Source: Hyphomicrobiaceae bacterium (GTDB lineage: Bacteria > Pseudomonadota > Alphaproteobacteria > Rhizobiales > Hyphomicrobiaceae). Taken from it: a stretch of 51,795 bases of DNA. Below the pieces are notes generated by a model that searched no databases, had not been told where the DNA came from, and saw nothing but the letters and a program-made list of their open reading frames with translations. Positions 7,195 through 43,275 of this stretch are shown one piece after another; position 1 is the first letter of the stretch, and each line of letters starts with the position of its first letter. The position numbers and the translations under genes were made by a program. The DNA is taken from NCBI GenBank assembly GCA_050186055.1, contig JBFWYV010000001.1, positions 1 through 51,795 of the forward strand, read 5' to 3'.

Positions 7195-7213
7195 GCGGCC
7201 CGCCCGGGCCCGA

Positions 7214-7639: not shown

Positions 7640-7903
7640 CTTTCCTCTGGATGTCGCAGGAAGCGGGCAACCTACCTGTCAACGGAACGGCGCGCCAGGG
7701 CCGGCGCCTCGACGGGCTCAGTGTGCGTTGCAGCGAATCAGCCCTTCCAGGGCCTTTGAGCGCGACGCGGTGGAAGTAGACAAGTCACGGAAATAACAAG
7801 GGTTTTGTGTGGACTTCACAGAGCTGACACAGATGGTTAGTATATGTTGCAGCGTTCAGGGTGCGATCCTGATTAATTCGGGCAACCGCCAGGAAGTACG
7901 CAC

Positions 7904-20919: not shown

Positions 20920-22479
20920 CTATGCGCCATTTCTACGTGTCATCCAGCCCGCAATCACGGGCATCTCTTCCGTTGTCCCACCTGATAGCACCGTCTCCAG
21001 CGATTGAACGAACGTTCCTATCAGGCCCTCGTCGGCGACATACAATTCCCCCGGTGCCGATCGATCCCACGCCGTCTGGAAGTATTTTGCGGCCTCATTG
21101 CGGTCGACGTCCGGCCGCGCCAAAGCTTCGCGGATGCGGTCGCCGAGATCGTGCAGCCGGTTCGCTCGCAGGACCAGCGGGCATTTTCCATAGAAGGCGT
21201 CGCCCAGCACCACAACCTGCTTGCCGAGCAGCAGCGCTTCCGCGCCTGATTTGCTGTTGACCGAGACCACGGCATCGGCCCGTTCCAGGATCGAGAAGTT
21301 GTTGGACTTTGGCGCGAGCACCACAAGGTTGTCGTAACGCCGGATGAGCTGCTTCAGCCGCGCAGCCGGGATCGCCCCGATCTGCGCGGGGTGCTCCTTG
21401 ATCGCGAGCATATGCGACGCCGGTATGACGCGGAGAATATAGTCGATGAGCGCGAGCTGATCGAGATACTCCGGCGACCGCAGCGTCAGCGCCATATCGG
21501 CCGGCACATGCAGCGGGTAATAGATGAACGGCTTGCCCTCGGGCAGCCCCTGGTAGTGGCGCTGCATCGACACCGCGTTGCGCACCATCAGGGCATGCGA
21601 ACGGGCGTGATGCAGATTGTGGCCGAATTCCTGGTGCTTTCCGAGCACATACTGGTCGTAGAGCTTCTCGCCCAATCGGCGAACGTTGCGGAAGTTTGCG
21701 ACTTTCGTTACCGCGGGCGCGTACTGATGCCGGTCCTTGATCGGCACCACGATCGCCTGCGAGCGGTAGGTCTGCTCCAGATAACGCGCCACCTCGCCGC
21801 TGACGGCTTCAGCCGGGCGGTCCATCGCTTGCAGGGCTTTGAACGTGTTTGCAACAAAGAACATCCGTCCACGGAAGAAAGATGGTTCCAGAAACCAGTT
21901 GTCGATGCCGCGCCGGCGCGCGGCGTGGAAGCTGGCGATGACCGAGAGGAACCCGCCGAGTTCCTGCACCATCACCGCGCTCTTGCCGGCGGTTTGCAAT
22001 CGATCGAGAACGCCCTCCAGTGCGTTCGAGTAGATCACGAAGCGCCGCGCCAGCGCTCCCGTGTCGCGGATCGCGAACGTCACCCGCTCATGGCTGAGTA
22101 GCAGGTTGACATTGTCGATACCGTAGTCATCGATCCGCCTGCGGAACATCGCATCGATGTCGCTGTCCGCATCGAGGCCGGCGAGCCCGTCCCGGAATAT
22201 GTTGTTCGCCGGAACCCCGGCAGCCTGCGCCATCTCGAAGCTGCGGTCGTCGAACGCCAGCAACTCGACCGCGCGTCCGTGAGCGATCAGCAGCTTAGCC
22301 ACAGGCAGCCAGAAGCGGGTCTGGTACGCCGCAAGCGTCGTGATCAGTATCGTCGAATCCGGATGCGGTCTGGCCATTTTGCTCATCGCTGCTGCCATCG
22401 GGATGGGAACGGCGGCAATTGAACGAGAGTTCTCTCCCCACTTCATCCCCTGCGCGTTCGCGAACGCAAGCACGCGCAC
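20920..22479 (-). CDS. Capsule polysaccharide biosynthesis protein (Capsule_synth; KpsS/KpsC/LipB-like putative ulosonic-acid transferase)
   Basis: YYPLHVPADMALTLRSPEYLDQLALIDYILRVIP..LAIKEHPAQIG..VVSVNSKSGAEALLLGKQVVVLGDAFY resembles the KpsS/KpsC family core. The start is uncertain, with several in-frame Met. Confidence 0.65.
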   Translation of the reverse strand: MRVLAFANAQGMKWGENSRSIAAVPIPMAAAMSKMARPHPDSTILITTLAAYQTRFWLPVAKLLIAHGRAVELLAFDDRSFEMAQAAGVPANNIFRDGLAGLDADSDIDAMFRRRIDDYGIDNVNLLLSHERVTFAIRDTGALARRFVIYSNALEGVLDRLQTAGKSAVMVQELGGFLSVIASFHAARRRGIDNWFLEPSFFRGRMFFVANTFKALQAMDRPAEAVSGEVARYLEQTYRSQAIVVPIKDRHQYAPAVTKVANFRNVRRLGEKLYDQYVLGKHQEFGHNLHHARSHALMVRNAVSMQRHYQGLPEGKPFIYYPLHVPADMALTLRSPEYLDQLALIDYILRVIPASHMLAIKEHPAQIGAIPAARLKQLIRRYDNLVVLAPKSNNFSILERADAVVSVNSKSGAEALLLGKQVVVLGDAFYGKCPLVLRANRLHDLGDRIREALARPDVDRNEAAKYFQTAWDRSAPGELYVADEGLIGTFVQSLETVLSGGTTEEMPVIAGWMTRRNGA

Positions 22480-24530: not shown

Positions 24531-24743
24531 TCGTCCATTCCGATACCGAAGAGAACTCTGAGAATTATTCCAAACCGTACATGAACCGAACATGAAAGGG
24601 CTGCATGATGAAGTAAATGGCAAAATTGGGGCCCACCCTTTGCATCAACAGCAAAATGCAATGCAAAGCGAACAGCCGCACTAATGCTCGATAGGCGCAA
24701 TTTAGGCCCAAGGTAGGGAGAGCCCAGATGATTCCGGTGCATC

Positions 24744-26777: not shown

Positions 26778-28292
26778 TCAGCCTTTCCCTGCTACCTCGA
26801 TTGCACGCTTGAGAACGGCACGATCCTGTCCGCCCAACACTACCAAGTAGCAGCCCAACCAGGCCAGTACACAGCACCCAGCCATCACGGCGCCCAGTCC
26901 GAGGAGGTTGAACGGTGCAAATGCTGCTTGGATTACCGCGGCCCAACCGGCGACAGCCAGCAGAACAACAGCATGCCGACCGACCTGCGACCAGAAAAGT
27001 GATGGCGGCAGGCCCCAGGTTTTCAGCATGTTGTTGGCCAATATTGGCGCAAACACGGTCATCGATACCGCCTGCCCGATAATGAATGCACGTTCACTGA
27101 ACCAGGCGAAAAAAGCAAACGTCAACAAGTATTGCAGCACGGCCTGCAACATCAGCAGCCGGGTCGTCAGGCGCATGAAATCCGAGCGGACATAGAGTGC
27201 GACTTGCCCTGGCCCGATCAGGACGCCGACGGCTGGCACGACCATCATCAGCGCCAGCCAGGGCCAGTACGCCGCAAAAGTCGGCCCCACCCAGAGGCTT
27301 AGAATGTCCTTCGAGAACATCGCCACGACGCCCAGAGCCGGCAGCGCCATCGCGGCGGGAAGCACGAAGCCGCCGCGCCCCAGCATATGCTGCCGGACGG
27401 TGTCGGACGTCTCGTCGATCCGCGCACTCGTAGGCAGGATCGCCGAACTGATGAGCCCCAGCGTCGACTTCAGAAATCTGGGAAGGCGCGTCAGGATGTC
27501 GTAGATGCCCACTGGTCCGGCCCCAAGCAGCGCGCCGATGGCCATCGGTGGCAACTGCTGCTGGAGAATCCCAACGACGCGGTTATTGAACATGAGCCCG
27601 CTGCGCAGAGCGACATCGGCGCGGCTTTCCTCTCCCCATTTCTGCAGCCGCAGTGGCGAGCCTCGCGCGAGGCGCGATGCCACCAGCCCAAGCAAGATGC
27701 ATCGCACGGCGGTGACGATGAGGAAGGCGTACGCGATCCACTGGTATGGCATCTGCCAGGCGGCTATCAGCAGCACCGCAGCGACATAGCTGAATGATCC
27801 CGCAATCTCGACGAGCCGCAGCCAGCCGTAACGCTCGAAGCCCTTGAGGAGTCCCTCCGCGATAAGTCCGGGAAAGGCAACCAGCAGCACAGCGGCGGTT
27901 GCTCTGGTCATGCCGATGAAGGCTGCCTGTTGATCGTCAGCGACCCTGAACAACTGCGCTAGCCAGAATGCGGCGCTCCACAGCAGGATAGCCGACGCGA
28001 TGCCGATGACGACCGACCCGATCAGTAGCAGCGTCACGCGCTCGCCGGCTGCGACCCAGTTGCCGCCTCCACGTGCCCGCGCAACCGATTGTGTCGTCGT
28101 ATCGGCGACGCCGAAGTCGATCAGCGCCAGGAAGCCGGTCGGCAACAGATTGCGCACCAGCACGATCATGCCAAGCGCGGCAAAGCCATAGCTGCGGGCA
28201 ATGACAGCGACGGCGATCAGGCCGAGAACCCCCGCGATCCCGAATGCGACCGCAGAAATCATGGTGTTCTGCACAAGCCGCCGCAGCATCAA
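26778..28292 (-). CDS. wzx: Oligosaccharide flippase (Wzx; MOP/polysaccharide biosynthesis protein family)
   Basis: 504 aa and about 12-14 TM. It has N-terminal NTMISAVAFGIAGVLGLIAVAVIARSYG and the mid-protein VGIYDILTRLPRFL motif typical of the family. Confidence 0.75.
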   Translation of the reverse strand: MMLRRLVQNTMISAVAFGIAGVLGLIAVAVIARSYGFAALGMIVLVRNLLPTGFLALIDFGVADTTTQSVARARGGGNWVAAGERVTLLLIGSVVIGIASAILLWSAAFWLAQLFRVADDQQAAFIGMTRATAAVLLVAFPGLIAEGLLKGFERYGWLRLVEIAGSFSYVAAVLLIAAWQMPYQWIAYAFLIVTAVRCILLGLVASRLARGSPLRLQKWGEESRADVALRSGLMFNNRVVGILQQQLPPMAIGALLGAGPVGIYDILTRLPRFLKSTLGLISSAILPTSARIDETSDTVRQHMLGRGGFVLPAAMALPALGVVAMFSKDILSLWVGPTFAAYWPWLALMMVVPAVGVLIGPGQVALYVRSDFMRLTTRLLMLQAVLQYLLTFAFFAWFSERAFIIGQAVSMTVFAPILANNMLKTWGLPPSLFWSQVGRHAVVLLAVAGWAAVIQAAFAPFNLLGLGAVMAGCCVLAWLGCYLVVLGGQDRAVLKRAIEVAGKG

Positions 28293-29695
28293 CTCGCCTC
28301 GACCAGCTCGACCGAGGAGCCTCCCAGCATTCGAGACGCGCGGCCGTACGTTTCGGTTGCGGGTCGCGCAATCCAGCGGCGGTCTGCAGATGCGACGGCC
28401 TGAATGCGGTTTAGTATGTCCTCCACCAATTCAATTGGGAACGCTTTGCCGATCCGCCGGCGTTCTATGCTCCGATTCGCATAAATTCGCCGAACCATCC
28501 CGCTGGTCCGATAGCCGAGCGTCGTTCGCGTCAGATGCGCGAAGCGTCCTCGGATGGAAGGTGACTCCGAAGCCACTATTGCAGCAGCACTCAGCGAAGC
28601 GGAGCGTATTGTGTGCAAAATGGCATCGGCAATTCGCTTTGTCGCAGCGCCATCGATAGCAAAATAAAGCTCTCTGAACACTTTCTTGCGAAACTCAAGC
28701 ACCTGGAATGGCGCGGGTGGAAGCCGATTTTCCAGTGCTTCTCCGAGCATGCGAATCAAGTCATCTTCACCGTTCGCTATCCGGCTGACGCCTGTTGCCG
28801 CATCCAGTCGCAAGGCCGGCGTGTTGAACCATTCCAGGGCGATGGCCTCAACGCCAAGCATCGCTGCCTCGACAGCCGTCGAGCAGTTCTGATGCAAGAG
28901 CAGACGAGATGAGGCGATCCATTCAAGAGACGTTCCCTCTTGGCGGACCTCGACGTTGGGAAGTCTCGCCAGCTCGTCATAGGCAGCGATACGCTCGAAA
29001 GGGTGTGGGCGGAGGACAAAGCGCACGCTCGGAAAAAGCTTAGCGAGTTGAATTGCAACGGCCGTGAGGGTGCGGTGCGCCTCGCCTGCATCATGAATGA
29101 ACTGAAGCGCGAAAGTCTCTGAGAAGCCAGCTTTCACCATGGACGCGATTTCATGCTTCGGGCCGGAAGAAAAGCGTGGGTTGACCGTCGGGAAATTGGT
29201 GTTGATGAGTACGTAGCCGGGGCGGACCCCCGGTACGGGGAGCGCGCTGCGCCAAGGCGCTGCGCAGAAATCGTATCGCGGGCAGCCTGTTACATGCAGC
29301 CGATTTTGCGGCACGGTTCCTTTCTGAATAAAGGCCCGATATTGCGATTCACCCCAAACGCAATACAGGTCCACGAGACGACCGCAGTTGGCACTGGCCA
29401 CCATCTCCGCGAAATGTTCAGAGCTCTTTCCCGCTATGCCTTCGGTGTCAAGAACGCCGACCAGAATGCCGGCATTCTTATATGTCTTGATGAGGTCTGA
29501 ATTGTTGGCGCGTGTATAATTGACGAGGACGAGGTCTGGCTTCAATGCTGGAACGTCAAAGCCCTGGTCGTACATCGGGACGAGCCAGCTCCGAGCCCCC
29601 GCGCAAGCAAGCTGCCACGCAAGAAGCACGAGGCCTTCAAGGTCCCGGAGCGGATTGTCGACGATAAGACAAACCCGCGGTGCTTTCTCGAGCAT
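28289..29695 (-). CDS. Surface-carbohydrate biosynthesis protein; candidate CMP-nonulosonate (pseudaminyl) transferase
   Basis: A soluble protein of about 468 aa with two Rossmann-like halves (RVCLIVDNPLRDLEG..; VLRPHP..LLLHQNCSTAVEAAMLG). It sits directly downstream of pseI and overlaps wzx by 4 nt. From memory it resembles the uncharacterised family that accompanies Pse/Leg clusters. ATG 29695 avoids overlap with pseI. Confidence 0.5.
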   Translation of the reverse strand: MLEKAPRVCLIVDNPLRDLEGLVLLAWQLACAGARSWLVPMYDQGFDVPALKPDLVLVNYTRANNSDLIKTYKNAGILVGVLDTEGIAGKSSEHFAEMVASANCGRLVDLYCVWGESQYRAFIQKGTVPQNRLHVTGCPRYDFCAAPWRSALPVPGVRPGYVLINTNFPTVNPRFSSGPKHEIASMVKAGFSETFALQFIHDAGEAHRTLTAVAIQLAKLFPSVRFVLRPHPFERIAAYDELARLPNVEVRQEGTSLEWIASSRLLLHQNCSTAVEAAMLGVEAIALEWFNTPALRLDAATGVSRIANGEDDLIRMLGEALENRLPPAPFQVLEFRKKVFRELYFAIDGAATKRIADAILHTIRSASLSAAAIVASESPSIRGRFAHLTRTTLGYRTSGMVRRIYANRSIERRRIGKAFPIELVEDILNRIQAVASADRRWIARPATETYGRASRMLGGSSVELVEAS

Positions 29696-29715
29696 TTTGG
29701 GAATCTGCCCTGAGT

Positions 29716-30789
29716 TCAATTCTCGCCGTCCTGTGCAGAAAGCAGGTCCCAGCTCATGGGAGTACCTCGGGGTACGGAACAACGGACTTGCTTTCCCAGT
29801 AGCATTTGCCGGTATTTGGGTGCCAGCCCCATACCGGGACGGATGGCCCGCAGGTTGGTTTCAGCCAGAACATCGCCAGGCCGCAAGTCTTCGACGATGT
29901 AGAGCGACCGGCGAAACATAAGCGAATTTTTTTCTTTCGTTGTTTGCCCATAATAAATTCGACCCAGAGCCTGCCATGCGCGCTCGCTTTCGATCACGAG
30001 TGACGCCATTTCTTCGGGTTCCATCGAGAATGTACTGTCCACTCCGCCATCAGCACGACGGAGAGTGAAGTGCTTTTCGATAACGGTCGCCCCCAGCGCC
30101 ACGCTGGCGATAGCCGCGCCAATTCCGAAAGTGTGATCGGAAAGGCCGACCTCGCATCCGAACAACTCGCGCAAGTGCGGAATGGTCAGCAAGTTGCTAT
30201 CCTGAGGCGAAGCTGGATACGTGCTTGTGCACTTGAGCAGCACGAGACTGCGGCACCCAGCCTCACGCGCTGTGCGCACAGTCTCGTCGAGTTCGGCAAT
30301 GGTAGCCATTCCAGTTGATATGATCACGGGCTTATCCGTGGCAGCGACCTTTCGGATTAAATCGAGGTCGGTATTCTCGAACGATGCTATTTTGTATGCA
30401 GGCACATCGAGCGTTTCCAGGAAATCAACCGCGGTGGCATCAAACGGTGTAGAAAAAGGGATCATCCCAAGCTCTCTAGCGTGATCAAAGATCGGCTTGT
30501 GCCAATCCCACGGCGTATAAGCTTGTTGGTAGAGATTGTGCAGGGAACTGCCTTTCCACAAGCTCTGCGGATCATCAATGAAAAATTCGCCGTCTTCACG
30601 ATCGATAGTCATCGTGTCTGCGGTGTACGTCTGCAGCTTCAGAGCGTGTGCACCCGACTTGGCCGCTGCCTCGACGATTGTCATCGCCCGATCGAGCGAT
30701 TGATTGTGATTGCCGGACATCTCCGCGATGATGAACGGCGGACTGTCTTTCCCCACCGTCCGTCCAGCAATTTCGAATACCATCGGCAT
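29716..30789 (-). CDS. pseI: Pseudaminic acid synthase (NeuB family + SAF domain)
   Basis: PFIIAEMSGNHNQSLDRA, KLQTYTADT, YKIASFENTDL, VIISTGMAT, GLSDHT, and a C-terminal SAF domain (RRSLYIVEDLRPGDVL..NLRAIRPG). Confidence 0.85.
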   Translation of the reverse strand: MPMVFEIAGRTVGKDSPPFIIAEMSGNHNQSLDRAMTIVEAAAKSGAHALKLQTYTADTMTIDREDGEFFIDDPQSLWKGSSLHNLYQQAYTPWDWHKPIFDHARELGMIPFSTPFDATAVDFLETLDVPAYKIASFENTDLDLIRKVAATDKPVIISTGMATIAELDETVRTAREAGCRSLVLLKCTSTYPASPQDSNLLTIPHLRELFGCEVGLSDHTFGIGAAIASVALGATVIEKHFTLRRADGGVDSTFSMEPEEMASLVIESERAWQALGRIYYGQTTKEKNSLMFRRSLYIVEDLRPGDVLAETNLRAIRPGMGLAPKYRQMLLGKQVRCSVPRGTPMSWDLLSAQDGEN

Positions 30790-35828: not shown

Positions 35829-36671
35829 CTACCACACACTGCGGCCGCCATCCATCACGATGTTCTGGCCGGTCATGTAGCTCGACGCGTCCGAGCACAG
35901 GAACTGGACAATCGATCTGTACTCGTCCTTGTGCGCCATCCGGCCCATCGGGATCAGTCGGTGCAGCCGCTCCGTGAAGGCGTCAGGCTGACCGTTGAAC
36001 ACGCCGCCCGGAGACAGCGCATTGACGCGCACGCCCTTGTCGGCCCAGTAGGTCGCAAGATACTTCGTCAGGCCCACAAGCCCATGCTTGATGACCGAGT
36101 AGGTGACGGGCTTCACCGGCTGTTCGGCTTCGGCAGTCACGTTGTCCTGCCGGTAAAGTCGCTGGTCGGGCGCGATCACGCCGAGGTCCGACGCAATATT
36201 GAGAATCACGCCGTCGCCGCGCTCGGCCATGGCGGCCCCGAACACCTGCGCGCATAGCATGGCGCCGGTCAGGCCGACCGCGATCTCCAGGTTCCACTGA
36301 TCGAGGGCAAACCCCTCGAAGCGGGAGGCATGCATCAGGCCGGCGGCCGATGTGACCTTCGGATCGATGGCGGCATTGTTGACCAGGATGCCGACCCCGC
36401 GCCCGTCGCGCGTGAGCCGCTCGTTAAGGGCCGCAATCGATGCGGCCTGACAGACATCGAGCGCTGCCGCCATGCAGGTGGCCTTGGGCACGATTTCCTT
36501 CACGAACACGGCGGCATCGGCAGCGCTCGCCTCGTTGAGATCGCTCAGCACCACAAAAGCGCCGGTCTCGGCCAGCGCTGCCGCATGCTGACGGCCGAGT
36601 AGCCCGCCCGCACCCGTGATCAAGGCCGTGCGCCCTGTGAGATCGTAAGGCTTGGGAAGAATGGGCCTCAT
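35829..36671 (-). CDS. SDR-family oxidoreductase (classical SDR, 1 of 3)
   Basis: ALITGAGGLLG (TGxxxGxG), NNAA, YSVIKHG (YxxxK). The start at 36671 or 36677 avoids overlap with the upstream gene. Confidence 0.8.
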   Translation of the reverse strand: MRPILPKPYDLTGRTALITGAGGLLGRQHAAALAETGAFVVLSDLNEASAADAAVFVKEIVPKATCMAAALDVCQAASIAALNERLTRDGRGVGILVNNAAIDPKVTSAAGLMHASRFEGFALDQWNLEIAVGLTGAMLCAQVFGAAMAERGDGVILNIASDLGVIAPDQRLYRQDNVTAEAEQPVKPVTYSVIKHGLVGLTKYLATYWADKGVRVNALSPGGVFNGQPDAFTERLHRLIPMGRMAHKDEYRSIVQFLCSDASSYMTGQNIVMDGGRSVW

Positions 36672-36699
36672 GCACATATCTCTCCGGATCGTTGTCACA

Positions 36700-37461
36700 T
36701 CATGCGCGGAGCTGACCACCGTCCGCAACCATCACCGTGCCGGTGATGAAAGCGGCGCGCGGCGAAGCGAGGAATGCAACTGCGTCCGCCACTTCTTCGG
36801 GCATGCCCAGCCGCGCAAGCGCCACCTCTCGTGTCAGCATGTCCTCGACGCTGTCGCGGTTCTCGGCCAGCTTGTGTGCCCAGGTTCCGCCTTCGAACAG
36901 GATATTGCCGGGCGCCACGGCATTGATCCGTATACCATCTCGAGCCAGTGGCCTGGCAAGACCTCGTACCGTCGCATTGAGCGCTGCCTTGGCCGCGGAG
37001 TAGGTTACCGGTGCGCCAAGTGCGGCGAGGCCGCAGATTGAGGAGACCGCAACGATCGACCGGTCGCCCTCGCCGTTGCGCATCAAGGGGCGCGCGGCAG
37101 AAATCGTGCCGGTGGTCGCAAACAGGTTGAGGTCCATTACCCGTCGCCACTCGGCGTCCGTCTCGTTGCCGGGCGGCACCGAGGCGCCGCTGCCGACGTT
37201 GCACACCAGGATATCGAGACGTCCCCAGCGTGCACCAACGTCGTCGATGAGCCAGTGCGTCTCGGCATCGTTTTGTACGTCTGCTTTGTGAATCGATACG
37301 TCAGCCGCAATGGAGGCCTTGGCTCGCTCCAGCCCTTCTCCGTCGCGGGCGTTGAGCGCGACCTTGCAGCCCTCGCGCGCCAGCGCCGACGCAATGGCAA
37401 GGCCGATCCCCCGACTTGCCCCGGTCACGAGTGCGACTTTGCTGGCAAGGCCGAGATCCAT
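36700..37461 (-). CDS. SDR-family oxidoreductase (FabG-like, 2 of 3)
   Basis: ALVTGASRGIGLAIA, YSAAKAAL, and the C-terminal ITGTVMVADGG. Its ATG directly abuts the upstream stop (TGAATG). Confidence 0.8.
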   Translation of the reverse strand: MDLGLASKVALVTGASRGIGLAIASALAREGCKVALNARDGEGLERAKASIAADVSIHKADVQNDAETHWLIDDVGARWGRLDILVCNVGSGASVPPGNETDAEWRRVMDLNLFATTGTISAARPLMRNGEGDRSIVAVSSICGLAALGAPVTYSAAKAALNATVRGLARPLARDGIRINAVAPGNILFEGGTWAHKLAENRDSVEDMLTREVALARLGMPEEVADAVAFLASPRAAFITGTVMVADGGQLRA

Positions 37462-38334
37462 TCAGGCACCCGCCGCGATCCAGCCCAGCACCATGTCCTG
37501 GTAGCGCGCGAGGGCACCGGCGTGATCGCCGTCGGCCGCACGCGCCGTTTGCAGCACGTAGTTGCCGGCATAGCCGTTCTGCTCAAGCAGCCGGATGGCG
37601 CGGCCAATCTCTGCCGCTCCGGTCCCAAGCGGCACGGTTGTTCCGCCGCGCACGCGGTCTTTCACATGCACATGCGCGATCCGATCGGCGTAGGCCACGA
37701 TCTCTTCGCCGCAATCGTAGCCGAGCGCCGCACTGTTTCCGATGTCGTAGTTGATGGCGTACGCCTCGGCCGGCAGCCGTTCGATGAAGTGCCTCAGCGT
37801 GTCGGGCGCGTAGTCGGATTCGAACGCCACCAGGACACCGCGCCGGCGTAGATCCGCGGTCCGCTCTGCCAGGACGTCGACGAGCACGGCCTCCTGAGCC
37901 GCAGTCTCCAGCGATCCGTTGTCGACCAGCGGCACCACGACGGTGCCAACGCCTAGCGCTGCAGCAGCGTCGATCACGGTGTCGAACTCGGCAATCAAAG
38001 CATCCCGCTCGGACCCCGCTACTTTCCAGAACGGTGCCTGCATGAACAGGTCGCCGGTCAGTGCAGCGACGCTGATGCTGTTTTGTGCAGCGAGCGCGCG
38101 GATCTCCTGCCGGCCGCCGTCCGTCATGATTGGGTTCTCGGACAGGTGGTCGTGGTCGAGCGTCCATTCGATCAGCTTGAGCCCAAGCCGGGCCGCGCCC
38201 GGAAATTCAGCCTCCCAATCATCCCACGGGAACGCCTGGATCTTGCCGTCGACCAGCGGTGACAGCCGCCCTTGCATGAAGCCGAGGCGCTCCGCCGTAG
38301 GTCGCTTCGCGCGCGTTGAAGTGTTGGCGGTCAC
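37462..38334 (-). CDS. Sugar phosphate isomerase/epimerase (xylose-isomerase-like TIM barrel)
   Basis: LGFMQGRLSP..GLKLIEWTL..VVVPLVD..LVAFESD..NYDIGNSA..HVHVKD is the typical AP_endonuc_2/IolE-like pattern. The proposed GTG start at 38334 forms a GTGA overlap with the upstream stop. The Met of MQGRL is an alternative, and the 38454 start overlaps the upstream gene by about 120 nt. Confidence 0.7.
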   Translation of the reverse strand: MTANTSTRAKRPTAERLGFMQGRLSPLVDGKIQAFPWDDWEAEFPGAARLGLKLIEWTLDHDHLSENPIMTDGGRQEIRALAAQNSISVAALTGDLFMQAPFWKVAGSERDALIAEFDTVIDAAAALGVGTVVVPLVDNGSLETAAQEAVLVDVLAERTADLRRRGVLVAFESDYAPDTLRHFIERLPAEAYAINYDIGNSAALGYDCGEEIVAYADRIAHVHVKDRVRGGTTVPLGTGAAEIGRAIRLLEQNGYAGNYVLQTARAADGDHAGALARYQDMVLGWIAAGA

Positions 38335-39101
38335 GTCACCAGCCCCTTTGCCGTCCAGCCGCCATCGATTATGATCTCCTGGCCGGTCATGTAGGCCGAG
38401 GCATCGGACGCCAGAAACAGCGCCGCCCCGACGAGATCGTCCGGCTCGCCCCACCGATCGAGAATGGTTTGCCGCCGCCGCTGTGCATTGAGCGCCGGGT
38501 CGCGATAGCTCGCATCCGTCATCGCCGTATGCACGTAGCCCGGCGCCAGAGCATTGACCCGAATCCCGTCGGCGGCAAGATCGACCGCAAGCGCGCGCGT
38601 CAGGCCCGTCAGGCCCGCTTTCGCCGCCACGTACCCTGGATTGCCGGGAAAGCCGCGGCTCGAATTGATGCTGGTGACGTTGACGATAGACCCGCGGCCG
38701 GACGCCTTCAGGAGGCGTCGCGCCGCGAGTACTGTCGCATAGACTGAGACCAGATCGGCCTCCAGTGTCGTTCGGAACCGCTCGATCTCCTCGGACGGCG
38801 AGCCGTTGCTCGGTCCCAATGAGATGCCGGCCGCGTTGATCAGAACATTGAGTTGCCCCGCATCCGCGCCGATCGTCGAAAAAGCAGCCTCGACTGCAGC
38901 AGGATTGGAAACATCGCAGGAAAAGGCTTGCACGCCTTCAGAGCCGGTGCCGCTGCGGCTGAGCCCATAGACCCGCGCGCCTGCCGTGGCTAGCCCGGCA
39001 GCGATCACCGCACCGATCCCGCGCGATGCGCCGGTGACTGCGGCGGTACGGCCGGCCAGCCCGAACCGCTTGGCGAGGGCGTCAGCCGGTGCGTCAGGCA
39101 T
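38331..39101 (-). CDS. SDR-family oxidoreductase (3 of 3)
   Basis: AAVTGASRGIGAVIA, NAAG, YVAAKAGL, MTGQEIIIDGG. Confidence 0.8.
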   Translation of the reverse strand: MPDAPADALAKRFGLAGRTAAVTGASRGIGAVIAAGLATAGARVYGLSRSGTGSEGVQAFSCDVSNPAAVEAAFSTIGADAGQLNVLINAAGISLGPSNGSPSEEIERFRTTLEADLVSVYATVLAARRLLKASGRGSIVNVTSINSSRGFPGNPGYVAAKAGLTGLTRALAVDLAADGIRVNALAPGYVHTAMTDASYRDPALNAQRRRQTILDRWGEPDDLVGAALFLASDASAYMTGQEIIIDGGWTAKGLVT

Positions 39102-39816
39102 AGCCGTAGCCCCGCATGATGACCTCGCACAGCTTGATGTCTTCGATCCTGTCGATCTGGAACATCTTGTGGCGTTCCATCAGGTAGAACCCGATCCGAC
39201 CGCCCAGCCGATTGTTGTTCTCGCGCAGCAGGCTTGGAGGGAAGACATAGAAGGAGCCGTTCTCCAGAAAACGGCGCTCGATCTCCTGCCGTCGCCGGCG
39301 CGTGCGATAATCATAGTTGACCGCCTCGGCTTGCCCGTCCTTGTCGAGCCGCCAGTTGAAGAAATCCTCCACCTCGCACACCGACAGCAAGCTGTCGTAT
39401 CCTTCGCGCTCATAGAGTTCGAGCGCGTCCGAAAGGTCGTTGGGCCCGCGGACCGGCGACGTCGCCTGCAGCGCCACGATCCGCGTGAACGGACCTTCTG
39501 TTGCCTCCACGCTGTCGAGCGCATGCCGCCACGCCGACTCGGAGGTCGCCGTGTCGCTGGAGATCGCGTCGGGACGTTTGATGCCGATGGCGCCATGGGC
39601 GCAGGCGACATCGAGGATCTCATCGCTGTCGGAGGAAAGCACTACGACGTCGATGCCCTTGGCATCGCGCGCCTGTTCGACGGTCCATGCAATCAGCGGC
39701 TTGCCGCAGATCTCGAGAAGGTTCTTGCGCGGTATGCCTTTCGAACCGCCTCGCGCGGCGATCACCGCCAGCGTGCGCTGCGGACCGGCGTCGCGCCGGC
39801 GAACTTGCGCCGTCAC
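39094..39816 (-). CDS. Acylneuraminate/ulosonate cytidylyltransferase family (NeuA/KdsB-like), second copy in the locus
   Basis: LAVIAARGGSKGIPRKNLLEICGKPLIAW, LQATSPVR. The GTG start forms a GTGA overlap with the upstream synthase stop. Confidence 0.8.
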   Translation of the reverse strand: MTAQVRRRDAGPQRTLAVIAARGGSKGIPRKNLLEICGKPLIAWTVEQARDAKGIDVVVLSSDSDEILDVACAHGAIGIKRPDAISSDTATSESAWRHALDSVEATEGPFTRIVALQATSPVRGPNDLSDALELYEREGYDSLLSVCEVEDFFNWRLDKDGQAEAVNYDYRTRRRRQEIERRFLENGSFYVFPPSLLRENNNRLGGRIGFYLMERHKMFQIDRIEDIKLCEVIMRGYGYA

Positions 39817-41771
39817 AGCCTGCCCTCCAGCCGCGCCAGTGCGGTCCAGAAGCCTTCGCCCATGTTCTTGTGCCCCTGCCAGATCTCGGGGATGAAGGAT
39901 GCGCCCGGAGCATGCTCGGCCAAGGTCTTGCCGAGCGCATCGAAATCAATCTCGCCGTCCTCGATTTGCAGACCCTCGCCGTCCAGCCCCTTGGCATCGC
40001 CCAGATGAAGATGCGCTGTATGCGGACCAAGCGCCGCGAGCCCTTCCAGAAAATCGAAGCCGAAATGATTGGATGCAAGCCGGGTATGCGAGATGTCGAC
40101 ACACATCCTCAATCCGGTTCTGGCACAGAATGCCGCCGACTCCTCGGGGAAGATGAAGATGTTCTGATGTCGTTGCCCGCCGAAGTGCCATGGGAACGGC
40201 GCCATCGTCTGCGGGATCAGCTCGACGCCCGTCATGTCGAGTTCGCCGAGGCTCATCTCGAAAATGTCGTAGCGCCGCGCTTTCTCGTCGGCGGGCAGCG
40301 GCGCGTCGCGCGTGAAGCCGCCTACATTGGCGACGATCATCGGCCGCTCCGTACGCGGGAAGAAACGCTTCAATCCGCGCGTGATGTCGATCACGCGCTG
40401 CGTCTCTTTGATCGAGATCTGCCGTTCCTCTTCGTCTGGCGTCGCCATATCCATCAGCCGGCTGCCGGCGAACAGCTCAGGTGCATGGACGACGAAACCG
40501 ATTTCGTAGGTCCCTTTGAGATAGTCGGCCGGGTCGCGGTCCATGTCCTGGTAGCTCAGGTGGAACTCGATCAGATCCGGCCGGCAGATCTTCAGAAAAC
40601 GCTCCGTATCGTGATAGCGCACCGGCACCCCCCACGGGCGGCTGAACGTATAGGCGCGCGCCTTGTCGCCGCCCGCCTCCAGGTCGGAGGCAAAGAAGTA
40701 GTCGTCCTTGCGCATCGCCCGTGTCAGGGTGCGGCCGACCAGCCGCGGCATCGCCAGCGGCGACACGCCCTGGCCCGGGCTGCGCACTGCGATGTCGCCT
40801 TCGCCAATCACGGCACCGGCTTCAAGGTCACGAGCCGCCACGAGGCTCTTGGCCAGGTTCTCGCGGTTGATGAGTTCGCCCTGGCTCAGTCTGCGCTCGC
40901 CCGCATTGCTCTCGGCTGCGCCATCTCCCATCGCCGCTTCGATTTCGCGAATGCCGCTGACCAGCGTCGAGAACTCGGCCGGCTCCAGGCTCGCGGCGTG
41001 ATCCGGTCCCTCCATGGTCCTGTCGAGCGTGATGTGACGTTCGATGATCGATGCGCCGAGCGCGACTGCGGCCTGCGATACGGCGACCCCGCGCTCATGC
41101 CCCGAATAGCCGACGGGCATGTGCACCTGCGCAAGCTGCCGCATGAAGCGGAGGTTGATATTGTGGAATGCGGCCGGATACGTGCTCTGGCAATGCAGCA
41201 GCGCATACGCGGCGCCGCGCTTGTCCAGATAGTCCGTAACCGTCGTGATTTCTCCGATCGTGCTCATGCCGGTCGACAGGATCATCGGCTTTCCCGTCGC
41301 CGCGATCACTGTGAGCAACGGCAGGTTCGTCAGATCGGCCGACGCCACCTTGAAGGCGGCAACGCCGAACCCGTCGAGCACCGCCACGCTCGCCGGGTCC
41401 CATGGCGTGCAGAGATAGGTGATGCCGGCTTGTTCGCAATAGGCCGCGAGGCGTTGGTGATCCGCGGTCCTGAGCTCGAATCTGCGCAGCAGATCGAGCG
41501 TGTATTCGACGGCAAGATCATCCTCGCGGCCTTCCAGCGTCGCGGCCCGATAGACCTGATCCAAATGCCGCATCTGGAACTTGGCGCAGTCGGCGCCCGC
41601 CGCGATCGCAGCATCCACCAGCGCGATCGCCCGGTCGAAGTCGCCGTTGTGATTGTTGCCGATCTCGGCGATCACGTAGCAGGGATGGCCAGGACCGACG
41701 GTACGCGGACCGATTTTCAGCTCGGCACGGCCTTTGTCCGCCCGCGAGCCGTTGGCATTGCCGTCCATCAT
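39813..41771 (-). CDS. Fusion protein: NeuB-family PEP-condensing ulosonic acid synthase + SAF domain + C-terminal xylose-isomerase-like TIM barrel
   Basis: N-half: CYVIAEIGNNHNGDFDRA, KFQMRHL, FKVASADLTNL, ILSTGMST, GYSGHERG, IERHITLD, and SAF (AKSLVAARDLEAGAVIGEGDIAVRSPG). C-half (about aa 385-652): IEFHLSY..VVHAPE..IVANVGG..ISHTRL..HLHLGD, typical of AP_endonuc_2/sugar-P isomerase barrels. Confidence 0.75.
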   Translation of the reverse strand: MMDGNANGSRADKGRAELKIGPRTVGPGHPCYVIAEIGNNHNGDFDRAIALVDAAIAAGADCAKFQMRHLDQVYRAATLEGREDDLAVEYTLDLLRRFELRTADHQRLAAYCEQAGITYLCTPWDPASVAVLDGFGVAAFKVASADLTNLPLLTVIAATGKPMILSTGMSTIGEITTVTDYLDKRGAAYALLHCQSTYPAAFHNINLRFMRQLAQVHMPVGYSGHERGVAVSQAAVALGASIIERHITLDRTMEGPDHAASLEPAEFSTLVSGIREIEAAMGDGAAESNAGERRLSQGELINRENLAKSLVAARDLEAGAVIGEGDIAVRSPGQGVSPLAMPRLVGRTLTRAMRKDDYFFASDLEAGGDKARAYTFSRPWGVPVRYHDTERFLKICRPDLIEFHLSYQDMDRDPADYLKGTYEIGFVVHAPELFAGSRLMDMATPDEEERQISIKETQRVIDITRGLKRFFPRTERPMIVANVGGFTRDAPLPADEKARRYDIFEMSLGELDMTGVELIPQTMAPFPWHFGGQRHQNIFIFPEESAAFCARTGLRMCVDISHTRLASNHFGFDFLEGLAALGPHTAHLHLGDAKGLDGEGLQIEDGEIDFDALGKTLAEHAPGASFIPEIWQGHKNMGEGFWTALARLEGRL

Positions 41772-41901
41772 CGCGTCCTCTCACGCGGTTGCAGTCTCGG
41801 GTCCCGGCGACGCCACGGTTCGATGCGCAATTGCAGGCCCGCGCCCATGGCGCAGGCCGCGAACGCCTGCCTTGCGCCGCAACACCGACCCGCCGGCACC
41901 G

Positions 41902-43275
41902 TCACTCGGGCATCCTCGTTTTCCAGGATTGCAGCCCGGTTTCATCGAATGAAATACGCTGGCAGCGATAGCCTGCACCCTCCATCGCGGTCTCGAAGTG
42001 GTATCGATGGAAGGGGCGGGTGTAAAACAGAAAGTAGCCGCCGCCGCCGGCACCAAGGAGCTTGCCTCCGATCGCGTGGTTGACGGCAGCGAAATCGTAG
42101 ATCTTGTCGATCTCGCCGTTGCTGATGGCCGAACTGAACTGGCGTTTGACCTGCCAGGCTTCGTCCAGCAAGCAGCCATAGTCGAGAAGACGTCCCCGCA
42201 GCAGCAGCTTTTTCATCTCCCGCGTGATGTCCTTCTGGCGCTCCGCGAGCTGCTTGATGTCGCGGCTCTCGGCCATGCTCTGCCTCTGATCGCGATGCAC
42301 CGCGCCCGAATCGTGCAGCTTGCCGGTGAACACCAGGACCAGGCTTTCCTCGAGTTCGCGCAGGGTTCGTGTTTCGAGCCTCAGTGGTACAACCTCGTTG
42401 TGGTCGGAGGTGAACTCCATGAAGTTGAAGCCGCCGAACACCGTCGCATACTGATCCTGCCAGCCTCCGGGGATGTTGAGCAGCAGCCGCTCCGATTGAA
42501 AGGCCATCTCCGCGATTTCGTGCCGGTCCCAGCGGTCGGCGCGGAACTCGTTGAAGCAGCCGATGACGGCCGACGTCACCGCCGCCGAGCCGCCGAGCCC
42601 CGAGCCGACAGGGAAGTCTGCGGCGACCTCGAGATCGAAGCCAAATCCGGGATCGATCAGGCGCACGACGGCCTTGAGCAGGTCGAGCCGGCCGTCAAAC
42701 GCCAGATCCTGCACGGAGGCGGCATTGACCGCATCGCGGAAGTCGTGCGAATAGATCCTCACGCCCTTGTTCGGCCGGCGCCTGAGACTGGCGTGGGCGA
42801 AGAGCTGCACGGTCGTGTTGATCACGACTCCGCCGTTCTCGTCGAAATAGTGGGTGAGATCGGTGCCTCCGCCGCCGAAGCTGATTCGGGCCGGCGACCG
42901 CGAGCGGCTGTAGACCTCGCGCTCTTCCTCGAGCTGAAACCGCTCGCGGGTGTAGACGTCGGCGAGCCGCCCGGCGCTGTCGAGCACTGGCACCGAGTGG
43001 ATCCGGTGGTCGAGAAGCTTGAGGATGTTCTCGCGCGGCGTGCCGACTTTCGCAGATACGAAGCGGCGGTTCATGCAATGCGACACCGGCAGCTTGATAT
43101 CGCGCGTCTTGAGCAGAAATCGCCGTATGTCGCCGTCCGTCACACTTCCGGTGATGCACTGGTCAAGGTCGCAGGCGAACAGGATTCTCAGCTTGTTCGC
43201 ATTGAGCCGGTGCAACGCCTCCTCGATCGGCTGGCTCTCACCCACCGTCCACGACTCGCGCTCAGCCGCCGACAT
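41902..43275 (-). CDS. Fusion protein: N-terminal CBS-domain pair + GHMP sugar kinase (HddA / D-glycero-D-manno-heptose-7-P kinase-like, COG2605 type)
   Basis: CBS region: ILFACDLDQCITGSVTDGDIRRFLL ... SVPVLDSAGRLADVYT. Kinase: RISFGGGGTDL, PVGSGLGGSAAV (GHMP motif II), GKLLGAGGGGYFLFY (motif III). Confidence 0.75.
   Translation of the reverse strand: MSAAERESWTVGESQPIEEALHRLNANKLRILFACDLDQCITGSVTDGDIRRFLLKTRDIKLPVSHCMNRRFVSAKVGTPRENILKLLDHRIHSVPVLDSAGRLADVYTRERFQLEEEREVYSRSRSPARISFGGGGTDLTHYFDENGGVVINTTVQLFAHASLRRRPNKGVRIYSHDFRDAVNAASVQDLAFDGRLDLLKAVVRLIDPGFGFDLEVAADFPVGSGLGGSAAVTSAVIGCFNEFRADRWDRHEIAEMAFQSERLLLNIPGGWQDQYATVFGGFNFMEFTSDHNEVVPLRLETRTLRELEESLVLVFTGKLHDSGAVHRDQRQSMAESRDIKQLAERQKDITREMKKLLLRGRLLDYGCLLDEAWQVKRQFSSAISNGEIDKIYDFAAVNHAIGGKLLGAGGGGYFLFYTRPFHRYHFETAMEGAGYRCQRISFDETGLQSWKTRMPE

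What the first reader, a model, noticed from the sequence alone, without database searches (positions are those of the whole stretch)
35829..43275. Second, unassigned CMP-ulosonic-acid-type pathway with no amino-sugar enzymes
Seven co-directional genes sit immediately upstream of the pse genes. They are tightly coupled: GTGA overlaps at 39813-39816 and 38331-38334, an 8-nt overlap at 39094-39101, and abutting TGAATG at 37459-37464. The set is a CBS::GHMP kinase, a NeuB-family synthase fused to a xylose-isomerase-like TIM barrel, a NeuA/KdsB-type cytidylyltransferase, three classical SDRs (each with TGxxxGxG and YxxxK) and a stand-alone TIM-barrel isomerase/epimerase. The locus therefore carries two PEP-condensing synthases (CYVIAEIGNNHNG versus PFIIAEMSGNHNQ) and two cytidylyltransferases (AARGGSKGIPRKN versus PARGGSKRIHKKN). 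The NeuB-family routes I know (Neu5Ac, legionaminic acid, pseudaminic acid) need an aminotransferase, N-acyltransferase, 4,6-dehydratase or NeuC-type hydrolysing epimerase; this module has none. Compared with the Kdn route it adds three oxidoreductases and two TIM barrels. My inference is that it makes a CMP-activated, non-aminated, redox/epimerase-tailored keto-deoxy ulosonic acid that I cannot map to a described pathway. The only kinase is HddA-like, and gmhA, gmhB and hddC are in the same locus. A heptose-derived aldose acceptor (C7 + PEP giving a C10 acid) is therefore a speculative but testable option.
Basis: partly seen in the sequence, partly recalled or inferred. Interest (0 to 1): 0.85.

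Follow-up and report, generated by a model that had tools for sequence, protein, structure and literature searches.

The report
Kdn-type sugar-acid operon linked to heptose
Seven tightly packed genes form a real second pathway for a CMP-activated, nitrogen-free sialic-acid-like sugar: its core matches the gene pair that Serratia needs to make Kdn, but here it is wired to heptose-activation genes and extra oxidoreductases, so the product may be a new, larger or epimerised relative of Kdn.

Summary
A complete, separately encoded pseudaminic acid set lies next to them.

- The pair of NeuB::SAF::TIM synthase and NeuA-type cytidylyltransferase is not an orphan. It is the universal core of a very large family: at least 88 clusters at 50% identity and 571 places matched in the scan of species-representative genomes.
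- A pair of this description is required for Kdn (and minor Neu5Ac) production in Serratia marcescens. A fusion of this kind was noted in Leptospira in 2012.
- The fused TIM barrel is therefore part of the synthase, not an extra enzyme.

The unexplained part is the kinase-associated sub-clade to which this window belongs.
- The CBS pair has moved from the synthase to an HddA-like kinase.
- In about 80 metagenomic loci the order (GmhB)-HddC-CBS::kinase-NeuB::TIM-GmhA-...-TIM-SDR-SDR recurs.
- In this window GmhA and HddC::GmhB lie 20 kb away in the same island.

My best model is that a manno-heptose precursor is condensed with PEP, CMP-activated, and epimerised by the SDRs and TIM barrel in an Ela-like way. 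The product was not determined.

The parts
41902..43275 (-). G1: CBS pair fused to an HddA-like GHMP sugar kinase (457 aa)
   Evidence: Pfam finds CBS plus the GHMP_kinases_N and _C domains. The NCBIfam HddA model scores 241 bits, below its cut-off of 600. The best PDB matches are heptose-7-P kinases 4n3o, 3k85 and WcbL 4usk. Its CBS pair is 28-40% identical to the N-terminal CBS of CBS-NeuB-TIM proteins.
39813..41771 (-). G2: NeuB-family PEP-condensing synthase + SAF + xylose-isomerase/Endo IV-like TIM barrel (652 aa)
   Evidence: Pfam finds NeuB (1e-82), SAF and AP_endonuc_2. PEP and metal residues are conserved: E25, K53, Q55, T110, K129, S132, S154, Y186, S213, H215, E234, H236 and D247 in N. 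meningitidis NeuB numbering. R314 is replaced by Ser. The AlphaFold model of the TIM domain has pLDDT 93.5. Its nearest folds are endonuclease IV (5zhz), then ketose 3-epimerases.
39094..39816 (-). G3: NeuA-type cytidylyltransferase (240 aa)
   Evidence: Pfam finds CTP_transf_3. The best PDB matches are CMP-sialic acid synthetases: 9t4z PpNeuA, 6ifd, 1qwj and 1eyr. The PseF model scores 117 bits, below its cut-off of 206. A homologue lies next to the fusion gene in 71 of 81 loci.
38331..39101 (-). G4: classical SDR (256 aa)
   Evidence: Pfam finds adh_short_C2 (1e-55). It carries TGASRGIG and YVAAK. It is present in about one third of kinase-associated loci.
37462..38334 (-). G5: stand-alone xylose-isomerase-like TIM barrel (290 aa), UlaE-like
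   Evidence: Pfam finds AP_endonuc_2 (3e-21). The only PDB match is UlaE 3cqh. It co-occurs with G6 and G7 in 20 of 32 long kinase-anchored loci.
36700..37461 (-). G6: classical SDR (253 aa)
   Evidence: Pfam finds adh_short_C2 (2e-55). It carries TGASRGIG and YSAAK.
35829..36671 (-). G7: PtmA/PRK09186-like SDR (280 aa)
   Evidence: The best NCBIfam hit is NF006619 (PRK09186), 155 bits. It is the most widely co-occurring tailoring gene: 24 of 32 long loci. In Nitrosomonas it sits with a GFO oxidoreductase and the cytidylyltransferase.
17023..17604 (-). GmhA, sedoheptulose-7-P isomerase (probable supplier for the module)
   Evidence: TIGR00441 scores 217.5 bits, above its cut-off of 209.45. Homologues lie directly after NeuB::TIM in many related loci.
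15827..17053 (-). HddC::GmhB fusion (sugar-1-P nucleotidyltransferase + heptose bisphosphate phosphatase)
   Evidence: Pfam finds NTP_transferase plus HAD. NCBIfam matches GmhB (147 bits) and HddC (119 bits). No GHMP kinase other than G1 was found among the annotated genes of the island.
28289..29782 (-). Candidate nonulosonic-acid transferase (TIGR04396 / BFO_1060-like)
   Evidence: NCBIfam scores 324 bits against a cut-off of 125. It co-occurs with the NeuB::TIM core in L050, L053 and Nitrosomonas loci.
20920..22479 (-). Capsule_synth (KpsS/KpsC-like) candidate ulosonic-acid transferase
   Evidence: Pfam finds PF05159. Homologues of 42-44% identity lie downstream of the core in L050 and L053.

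Best explanation
The seven genes are one operon-like module for a CMP-activated, non-aminated ulosonic acid of the Kdn type. It belongs to a monophyletic, kinase-associated branch of the NeuB::SAF::TIM / NeuA family.

Shown by sequence and comparison:
- G2 has an intact PEP/metal site.
- G3 is a NeuA-type cytidylyltransferase.
- These two genes are the universal core of the family.
- The CBS::kinase, G5, G6 and G7 are conserved partners in this branch.
- HddC, GmhA and GmhB homologues are interleaved with them in most relatives.

Inferred mechanism:
1. GmhA (17023-17604) makes D-glycero-D-manno-heptose 7-phosphate.
2. The CBS-regulated kinase G1 is the first committed, feedback-controlled step. 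Together with GmhB::HddC it converts this to a (probably GDP-linked) manno-heptose, the C7 analogue of GDP-mannose or Man-6-P.
3. The Endo IV-like TIM domain of G2 removes the phosphate or nucleotide.
4. The NeuB domain condenses the manno-configured aldose with PEP. The product is a 3-deoxy-2-ulosonic acid one carbon unit longer than Kdn (C10).
5. G3 makes the CMP-sugar.
6. G4, G6 and G7 (oxidation and face-selective reduction) and G5 (epimerisation next to a keto group) change its stereochemistry. ElaA and ElaC do the same kind of thing to CMP-legionaminic acid.
7. The product is built, together with pseudaminic acid, into a Wzx/Wzy-dependent surface polysaccharide.
For: - Architecture and coupling.
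- Catalytic residues of the NeuB domain.
- Family size and CBS variants.
- Core pair in 71 of 81 loci from many phyla.
- Serratia neuA plus a 2241-bp neuB carrying a COG1082 domain, between wzc and wzx, is needed for Kdn: PMC9000132.
- G3 is closest to CMP-sialate synthetases.
- The NeuB domain shares the GYSGHE(R/T)G motif with human NANS, 35% identity.
- Kinase followed by NeuB::TIM in 47 of 50 loci, HddC upstream in 40 of 63, GmhA in 15 of 40, GmhB in 20 of 80.
- The window's GmhA passes its equivalog cut-off, and G1 is the only GHMP kinase found in the island.
- The CBS pair sits either on the kinase or on the synthase, never both.
- The kinase-associated synthases form one NJ clade.
- That clade has its own signature beside the catalytic Asp (GPDHAAS versus GNDHKVS).
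- The TIM domain is nearest to endonuclease IV. It has extra invariant His residues at the ends of strands 2 and 3, and Gln where ketose 3-epimerases have their catalytic Glu. The Endo IV and epimerase ligand positions I compared against come from my own knowledge.
- Precedent for GFO/SDR epimerisation of a CMP-NulO: PMC13656337.
Against: - No enzyme here was assayed, and no C10 ulosonic acid is known to me from any organism.
- GHMP sugar kinases of the HddA type phosphorylate the anomeric carbon. This only makes sense if a later hydrolysis frees the aldehyde, and that activity of the TIM domain is unproven.
- By profile search the TIM domain is closest to MJ1311, a ketose-3-epimerase-like protein. 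Foldseek scores for Endo IV and the epimerases are close.
- In Bradyrhizobium diazoefficiens (L001) no gmhA or hddC lies within 10 kb of the module.
- G1, HddC and G2 all score below the NCBIfam equivalog cut-offs.
- I could not retrieve the Serratia NeuB sequence, so its membership rests on the paper's description.
Confidence: 0.45

Rival explanations
1. The module makes ordinary Kdn (C9) from Man-6-P, mannose or GDP-mannose, exactly as the Serratia neuAB pair is thought to. The SDRs and the stand-alone TIM barrel then epimerise or otherwise tailor Kdn or CMP-Kdn. The kinase G1, GmhA and HddC::GmhB make GDP-D-glycero-alpha-D-manno-heptose as a separate building block of the same polysaccharide.
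For: - Serratia genetics and chemistry link this type of pair to Kdn.
- G1 is the only HddA candidate for an otherwise complete gmhA / gmhB::hddC / epimerase set in the island.
- Known Kdn routes need no further enzymes (PMC6200933).
- Genes for different sugars of one glycan are often interleaved.
Against: - It does not explain why the CBS pair leaves the synthase exactly when the kinase acquires it.
- It does not explain why the order HddC-kinase-NeuB::TIM-GmhA is kept across dozens of divergent loci.
- It does not explain why the kinase-associated synthases are a separate clade with changes beside the catalytic Asp.
- L160 carries a core-type CBS-NeuB::TIM next to an HddC-CBS::kinase pair, which suggests non-redundant products. 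The contig ends before a second synthase could be seen.
Confidence: 0.3
2. This is an animal-like N-acetylneuraminic acid route, as proposed for Leptospira. A kinase makes ManNAc-6-P. The NeuB domain makes Neu5Ac-9-P. The fused TIM domain is the phosphatase. G3 makes CMP-Neu5Ac.
For: - The Ricaldi et al. hypothesis for the Leptospira fusion (PMC3438082).
- A NANS-like motif in the NeuB domain.
- Serratia neuAB strains also make Neu5Ac at about 1:20 relative to Kdn.
- An AGE-family GlcNAc 2-epimerase gene lies next to the module in B. diazoefficiens.
Against: - No AGE, NeuC or NanE homologue was found among the genes annotated in this window.
- R314, which holds the N-acetyl group in N. meningitidis NeuB, is Ser throughout the family. 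The role of R314 is from my own knowledge.
- The kinase is HddA-like, not a ROK-type ManNAc kinase.
- Kdn, not Neu5Ac, is the main Serratia product.
- The three SDRs and G5 would have no role.
Confidence: 0.08
3. The module does not make a second sugar. It modifies pseudaminic acid or supplies a substituent for it, because it is co-transcribed with pseB/C/F here and in L003.
For: The module or the core lies directly upstream of pseB-pseC-pseF in the window, L003, L043 and L053.
Against: - The pse set is complete, with its own PseI and PseF above equivalog cut-offs.
- The module occurs without pse genes in Bradyrhizobium and in most of the 160 loci.
- It has its own intact PEP-condensing synthase and cytidylyltransferase.
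Confidence: 0.05

Closest known systems
Serratia marcescens KL1/KL2 capsule neuA-neuB pair (Kdn, with minor Neu5Ac; Anderson et al. 2022, PMC9000132)
   Same: A NeuA-type cytidylyltransferase lies next to a NeuB-family synthase that carries an extra C-terminal sugar-phosphate isomerase/epimerase (COG1082 / AP_endonuc_2) domain. The pair sits inside a Wzx/Wzy polysaccharide locus. No amino-sugar enzymes are needed. The arrangement wzc-neuA-neuB-wzx is the same as in my loci L014 and L022.
   Different: The Serratia NeuB ORF is 2241 bp. That length fits the CBS-NeuB-SAF-TIM form, so I take it to have the CBS pair on the synthase, but the paper does not say so. The paper describes no kinase, SDRs, second TIM barrel or heptose genes as partners. 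Here the CBS pair is on a separate HddA-like kinase, and the synthase belongs to a distinct clade with altered residues beside the catalytic Asp. I did not compare the Serratia sequence itself.
Leptospira interrogans fused NulO synthase (YP_002104 / NP_711794; Ricaldi et al. 2012, PMC3438082)
   Same: [quoted passage not shown] A Leptospira borgpetersenii locus (L063) was recovered with my TIM-domain profile.
   Different: It sits in a cluster with Leg genes and aminotransferases. It was proposed, not shown, to make Neu5Ac-9-P and dephosphorylate it. There is no GHMP kinase and no G5/G6 partners.
Kdn-9-P route of Bacteroides thetaiotaomicron, Prymnesium parvum and human NANS
   Same: The product is non-aminated. 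A manno-configured phosphorylated aldose is condensed with PEP, dephosphorylated and CMP-activated. The G2 NeuB domain shares the GYSGHE motif with NANS. G3 resembles CMP-sialate synthetases.
   Different: Those routes use a separate HAD phosphatase and have no fused TIM barrel, CBS domain, GHMP kinase or SDRs.
GDP-D-glycero-alpha-D-manno-heptose pathway (GmhA, HddA, GmhB, HddC)
   Same: All four activities have homologues in the island. In relatives they lie inside the module. G1's kinase domain is closest to the solved HddA and WcbL structures.
   Different: G1 carries an N-terminal CBS pair and scores far below the HddA equivalog cut-off. The pathway is interleaved with a PEP-condensing synthase, which is not known for any heptose pathway.
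ElaA/ElaB/ElaC cassette (CMP-legionaminic acid C8 epimerisation; PMC13656337)
   Same: A cytidylyltransferase works with two NAD(P) oxidoreductases that oxidise and re-reduce a hydroxyl of a CMP-nonulosonic acid. Nitrosomonas relatives of the core carry a G7-like SDR, a GFO enzyme and the cytidylyltransferase side by side.
   Different: This window has no Gfo/Idh/MocA enzyme. It has three classical SDRs and a UlaE-like TIM barrel instead. The substrate lacks the N-acetyl groups that ElaA and ElaC recognise. I did not test homology of G7 to ElaC directly.

Membership tests
NeuB::SAF::TIM + NeuA 'Kdn-type' pair (Serratia neuAB type) | NeuB-family domain with intact PEP and metal ligands | tested here: met
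   All 13 checked residues are conserved against N. meningitidis NeuB. Pfam NeuB scores 1e-82.
NeuB::SAF::TIM + NeuA 'Kdn-type' pair (Serratia neuAB type) | C-terminal AP_endonuc_2 / COG1082 TIM barrel fused after the SAF domain | tested here: met
   Pfam places AP_endonuc_2 at residues 403-640 of G2. G2 aligns over its full length with at least 88 representative fusions. Invariant H, D and E columns are retained.
NeuB::SAF::TIM + NeuA 'Kdn-type' pair (Serratia neuAB type) | Adjacent NeuA-type cytidylyltransferase | tested here: met
   G3 overlaps G2 by 4 nt. A homologue is adjacent in 71 of 81 loci.
NeuB::SAF::TIM + NeuA 'Kdn-type' pair (Serratia neuAB type) | N-terminal CBS pair on the synthase (present in about half of the family; inferred for Serratia from its ORF length) | tested here: not met
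   G2 starts directly with the NeuB domain. The homologous CBS pair is on G1.
NeuB::SAF::TIM + NeuA 'Kdn-type' pair (Serratia neuAB type) | Product is Kdn | not testable with these tools
   This needs chemistry. The kinase-associated clade has a different signature beside the catalytic Asp.
Canonical bacterial Neu5Ac pathway (NeuC-NeuB-NeuA) | Hydrolysing UDP-GlcNAc 2-epimerase NeuC | tested here: not met
   None of the genes annotated in the island has an Epimerase_2/NeuC hit.
Pseudaminic / legionaminic acid pathways | 4,6-dehydratase, aminotransferase and N-acyltransferase dedicated to the synthase | tested here: not met
   The module has none. The adjacent PseB, PseC, PseG, PseI and PseF form a separate complete set. 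G2 and G3 score below the PseI and PseF cut-offs.
GDP-D-glycero-alpha-D-manno-heptose pathway | GmhA sedoheptulose-7-P isomerase | tested here: met
   Window 17023-17604 scores 217.5 bits on TIGR00441, above the cut-off of 209.45.
GDP-D-glycero-alpha-D-manno-heptose pathway | HddA kinase, GmhB phosphatase and HddC guanylyltransferase at equivalog level | tested here: inconclusive
   G1 scores 241 bits against a cut-off of 600. HddC scores 119 against 300. GmhB scores 143-147 against 150-178. The best hits are to these families, but all fall below the cut-offs.
Animal-type NulO-9-P synthase + phosphatase route | Dedicated phosphatase acting on the 9-phosphate | not testable with these tools
   The module has no HAD phosphatase. 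The fused TIM domain has Endo IV as its nearest fold (TM 0.68/0.76), but the ketose epimerases score almost as well.
ElaABC-type CMP-NulO epimerisation | Gfo/Idh/MocA oxidase + SDR reductase + cytidylyltransferase | tested here: inconclusive
   SDRs and a cytidylyltransferase are present, but the module has no GFO enzyme. GFO + G7-like SDR + cytidylyltransferase does occur next to the core in the Nitrosomonas loci L018-L020 and L024-L027.
Ketose 3-epimerase (DTE / UlaE) family, for the fused TIM domain | Two catalytic Glu residues among a Glu-Asp-His-Glu metal site | tested here: not met
   At the end of strand 5, where I place the first catalytic Glu of these epimerases (from my own knowledge), at least 90% of the family has Gln (Q154 of alignment A2). 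Extra invariant His residues lie at strands 2 and 3.

The most novel reading that the evidence does not exclude
The kinase-associated NeuB::TIM clade, including this operon and its orthologues in very many Bradyrhizobium genomes, makes a CMP-activated ten-carbon 3-deoxy-2-ulosonic acid from D-glycero-D-manno-heptose and PEP. This would be a 'homo-Kdn', further epimerised by the SDRs and TIM barrel. I know of no such sugar class described in nature. The fused Endo IV-like TIM domain would be a new kind of phosphate- or nucleotide-releasing partner of a NeuB synthase.
Probability: 0.4. Interest if true: 0.88.

Novelty: new variant of a known kind. Interest (0 to 1): 0.68.

Why it matters
Sialic-acid-like sugars shape how bacteria are seen by hosts, phages and immune systems. 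The NeuB::TIM / NeuA pair is very widespread, from Proteobacteria and cyanobacteria to Leptospira, Bacillus and Klebsiella. Its enzymology is unknown beyond one genetic study.

The branch found here is conserved in soybean symbionts (Bradyrhizobium) and in many marine, freshwater and soil bacteria. Its synteny with the GDP-heptose genes turns a vague 'unknown sialic acid' into a sharp, testable question: is heptose the acceptor, and what does the fused TIM domain do?

A positive answer would add a new monosaccharide class and a new enzyme activity. A negative one would still define the bacterial Kdn route and how Kdn is tailored.

Tried and rejected
- **Bradyrhizose (the C10 bicyclic sugar of photosynthetic Bradyrhizobium).** Rejected. 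It is an aldose with no carboxylate, and its candidate cluster is a different 11-gene operon containing a dTDP-glucose 4,6-dehydratase.
- **A GmhA::cytidylyltransferase fusion in L120 and L081.** Rejected. The two genes are in different frames and only abut.
- **A recent duplication of G5 as the origin of the fused TIM domain.** Rejected. BLASTP finds only a 26-residue match.
- **Literature searches on Bradyrhizobium with NeuB, nonulosonic or flagellin glycosylation terms.** They gave nothing on this operon.
- **A search for a Serratia protein with the Klebsiella TIM fragment.** No named Serratia hit appeared in the top 120.
- **A LIC12162-type transferase.** One lies next to the module in L120, but it has no homologue in the window or in the Bradyrhizobium loci.
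- **The 832-aa protein downstream of the module in B. diazoefficiens.** It has no relative in the PDB.
- **Profile search of the TIM domain against the PDB.** Only MJ1311 came up, so sequence alone cannot decide between a phosphoesterase and an isomerase.

Full report
**1. Observation**

The window is a whole 51.8-kb contig. On the minus strand, from 43275 down to 35829, lie seven co-directional ORFs. Pfam assigns them as follows:
- G1, CBS + GHMP kinase (41902-43275).
- G2, NeuB + SAF + AP_endonuc_2 TIM barrel (39813-41771).
- G3, CTP_transf_3 (39094-39816).
- G4, classical SDR (38331-39101).
- G5, AP_endonuc_2 TIM barrel (37462-38334).
- G6, SDR (36700-37461).
- G7, SDR (35829-36671).

The quoted peptide motifs are present.

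Three minor corrections apply. G7 most likely starts at ATG 36671. Its glycine motif is TGAGGLLG. A 130-nt gap separates G1 from G2.

Downstream lie PseB, PseC, PseF, PseG, a formyltransferase-like gene and PseI. The five Pse proteins pass NCBIfam equivalog cut-offs. G2 and G3 pass none. The locus therefore carries two independent synthase/cytidylyltransferase pairs.

The island runs from about 14.7 to 43.3 kb between housekeeping genes: ATP synthase b/b' on one side, and Smr, MltA, Tim44, DnaQ, CoaE and Maf on the other. It also encodes a WecA-like GT4, HddC::GmhB, GmhA, an extended SDR, Wzy_C, a GT2, a KpsS/C-like protein, Wzy-like and Wzx-like membrane proteins, and a TIGR04396/BFO_1060-like candidate NulO transferase.

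**2. The module is conserved**

G2 has homologues of about 75% identity in very many Bradyrhizobium species. B. diazoefficiens has the same seven genes in the same order with no pse genes nearby (L001). A relative whose synthase is 79% identical has the module followed by pseB/C/F (L003).

**3. The core is a large, known-by-genetics family**

A search of 1.8 billion representative proteins found at least 88 full-length NeuB-SAF-TIM fusions among the best 150. About half carry an extra N-terminal CBS pair, giving a protein of about 750 aa.

A scan of one genome per species with a TIM-domain profile found 571 relatives. The best 80 loci come from Gamma-, Beta- and Alphaproteobacteria, cyanobacteria, Leptospira, Bacillus-type Firmicutes, Flavobacteriales, Desulfobulbia and others.

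tblastn and ORF clustering show that the only universal partner is a cytidylyltransferase, present in 71 of 81 loci and usually directly upstream. The surroundings are ordinary polysaccharide genes: Wzx, Wzm/Wzt, Wzc, glycosyltransferases, and methyl-, acetyl- and pyruvyl-transferases. A Klebsiella K locus carries the pair between wzy/GT genes and gnd-manC-manB-ugd.

Two papers describe this kind of gene.
- Ricaldi et al. 2012 noted the Leptospira synthase with a C-terminal endonuclease-like domain. They proposed an animal-like Neu5Ac-9-P route.
- Anderson et al. 2022 showed that Serratia marcescens KL1/KL2 strains carry neuA and a 2241-bp neuB with an extra COG1082 domain between wzc and wzx. 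These strains make Kdn and a little Neu5Ac (about 20:1). Deleting neuB abolishes sialic acid and capsule.

That ORF length and gene order match the CBS-NeuB-SAF-TIM form and loci such as L014 and L022. I could not fetch the Serratia sequence, so this identification rests on the paper's description.

**4. What the domains say**

The NeuB domain keeps every PEP and metal residue that I checked against N. meningitidis NeuB. Arg314, which holds the N-acetyl group of ManNAc (from my own knowledge), is Ser in the whole family.

The motif GYSGHE(R/T)G...ERHITLD...DH.ASLEP is shared with human NANS, which uses 6-phosphorylated sugars. The match is 35% identity and 221 bits.

G3 is closest to CMP-sialic acid synthetases.

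The fused TIM domain gave a confident AlphaFold model (pLDDT 93.5). Its best structural match is M. tuberculosis endonuclease IV (TM 0.68/0.76). Ketose 3-epimerases, UlaE and MJ1311 follow closely. By profile search only MJ1311 is found.

The family has invariant His residues after strands 2 and 3, a D..H motif, H.H..D, a conserved D-G-E-G, and a final Glu. It mostly has Gln where ketose 3-epimerases have their first catalytic Glu. I placed the Endo IV and epimerase ligands from my own knowledge, not from a tool result. I read this pattern as favouring a metal-dependent phosphoester hydrolase over an epimerase, but it is not decisive.

**5. The kinase-associated branch**

Only Bradyrhizobium-type loci and a few others (L070, L075, L081) have the CBS::kinase.

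A metagenome scan with an alignment of six CBS::kinases returned 543 relatives. Counts over the best 80 loci, restricted to those long enough to judge each position, are:

| Feature | Loci |
|---|---|
| NeuB::TIM directly after the kinase | 47 of 50 |
| HddC-like nucleotidyltransferase directly before the kinase | 40 of 63 |
| GmhA homologue directly after the synthase | 15 of 40 |
| GmhB homologue in the locus | 20 of 80 |
| G7 within 9 kb | 24 of 32 |
| G5 within 9 kb | 20 of 32 |
| G6 within 9 kb | 16 of 32 |
| A cytidylyltransferase within 9 kb | 18 of 32 |

The HddC-like genes have HddC as their best NCBIfam hit. The window's GmhA passes its equivalog cut-off.

Synthases in these loci lack the CBS pair, and the kinase's CBS pair is homologous to the one on core-type synthases. 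The kinase-associated synthases form one clade in an NJ tree. The only three other members of that clade come from kinase-anchored loci as well. They differ from core-type enzymes at ten positions. Four of these lie beside the catalytic Asp: GPDHAAS against GNDHKVS.

Variants of the branch add class III or DegT aminotransferases, methyltransferases, a VOC protein, GFO oxidoreductases and a LIC12162-type transferase.

**6. Mechanism**

Shown:
- An intact PEP-condensing synthase and a NeuA-type activating enzyme are present.
- They have conserved partners, and there are no amino-sugar enzymes.

Inferred:
- The CBS pair marks the regulated first committed step. Its move to the HddA-like kinase suggests that the kinase opens this pathway.
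- GmhA, G1, GmhB and HddC would give a GDP-manno-heptose-type precursor, the C7 analogue of the mannose precursor of Kdn.
- The TIM domain would free the aldose, or remove a terminal phosphate.
- The NeuB domain would make a C10 3-deoxy-ulosonic acid, and G3 the CMP-sugar.
- The SDRs and G5 would epimerise it through keto intermediates. ElaA (GFO) and ElaC (SDR) do this at C8 of CMP-legionaminic acid. The Nitrosomonas relatives carry exactly SDR + GFO + cytidylyltransferase beside the core.

The main rival keeps Kdn as the product and treats the heptose genes as a separate pathway of the same glycan. It explains less of the synteny but needs no new chemistry.

**7. Comparison and novelty**

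The core is a member of the NeuB::TIM / NeuA family that has been linked genetically to Kdn. The finding as a whole is a new variant of that kind: a CBS::kinase, heptose genes, three SDRs and a second TIM barrel.

No step has been reconstituted for any member of the family in the literature I could search.

If the C10 reading is right, it would be a new sugar class. I give that reading 0.4.

**8. Verdict**

Noticed in passing
window 30991-31635 (-): In the otherwise complete pse operon, a formyltransferase-like gene occupies the position where an N-acetyltransferase (PseH) would be expected. No PseH was found. This hints at an N-formylated pseudaminic acid derivative.
   Followed up: partly
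window 24093-24623 (-), within the low-GC patch at 22-25 kb: A small protein with a signal-peptide-like N-terminus carries three tandem copies of a Cys-containing repeat of about 32 residues (RYGWCP.G.DFDRRTERCYPNGA). It lies beside an 11-TM Wzy-like gene in a region of about 49% GC, against 64% elsewhere.
   Followed up: no
window 15827-17053 (-): HddC-like nucleotidyltransferase and GmhB-like HAD phosphatase are fused in one 408-aa protein. The gene overlaps gmhA. In most related loci the two are separate genes.
   Followed up: partly
window 28289-29782 and 20920-22479 (-); L050, L053: Two candidate ulosonic-acid transferases (TIGR04396/BFO_1060-like and PF05159 KpsS/C-like) travel together with the NeuB::TIM core in Rhizobium wuzhouense and Limnobacter loci. 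This suggests one transferase per acidic sugar.
   Followed up: partly
L018-L020, L024, L026, L027 (Nitrosomonas): A divergent trio of G7-like SDR, Gfo/Idh/MocA oxidoreductase and cytidylyltransferase lies next to CBS-NeuB::TIM. Its composition is the same as the ElaC/ElaA/ElaB cassette for CMP-NulO epimerisation.
   Followed up: partly
L160 (marine metagenome contig), 2845-7856: A core-type CBS-NeuB::TIM and an HddC-CBS::kinase pair lie in the same locus, which suggests the two types are not redundant. The contig ends before a second synthase could be seen.
   Followed up: no
L001 5874-7028 and 15889-21926 (B. diazoefficiens): In Bradyrhizobium the module is flanked by an AGE-family (GlcNAc 2-epimerase-like) gene and an AMP-binding enzyme upstream. 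Downstream are a multi-TM protein, two proteins with no recorded family, and an 832-aa protein with no Pfam or PDB relative. These may be the acceptor or transferase machinery.
   Followed up: partly
window 41772-41901: The 130-nt G1-G2 spacer is GC-rich and, by eye, contains an imperfect inverted repeat (GGCGCAAGGC...GCCTGCGCC). I did not fold or analyse it.
   Followed up: no
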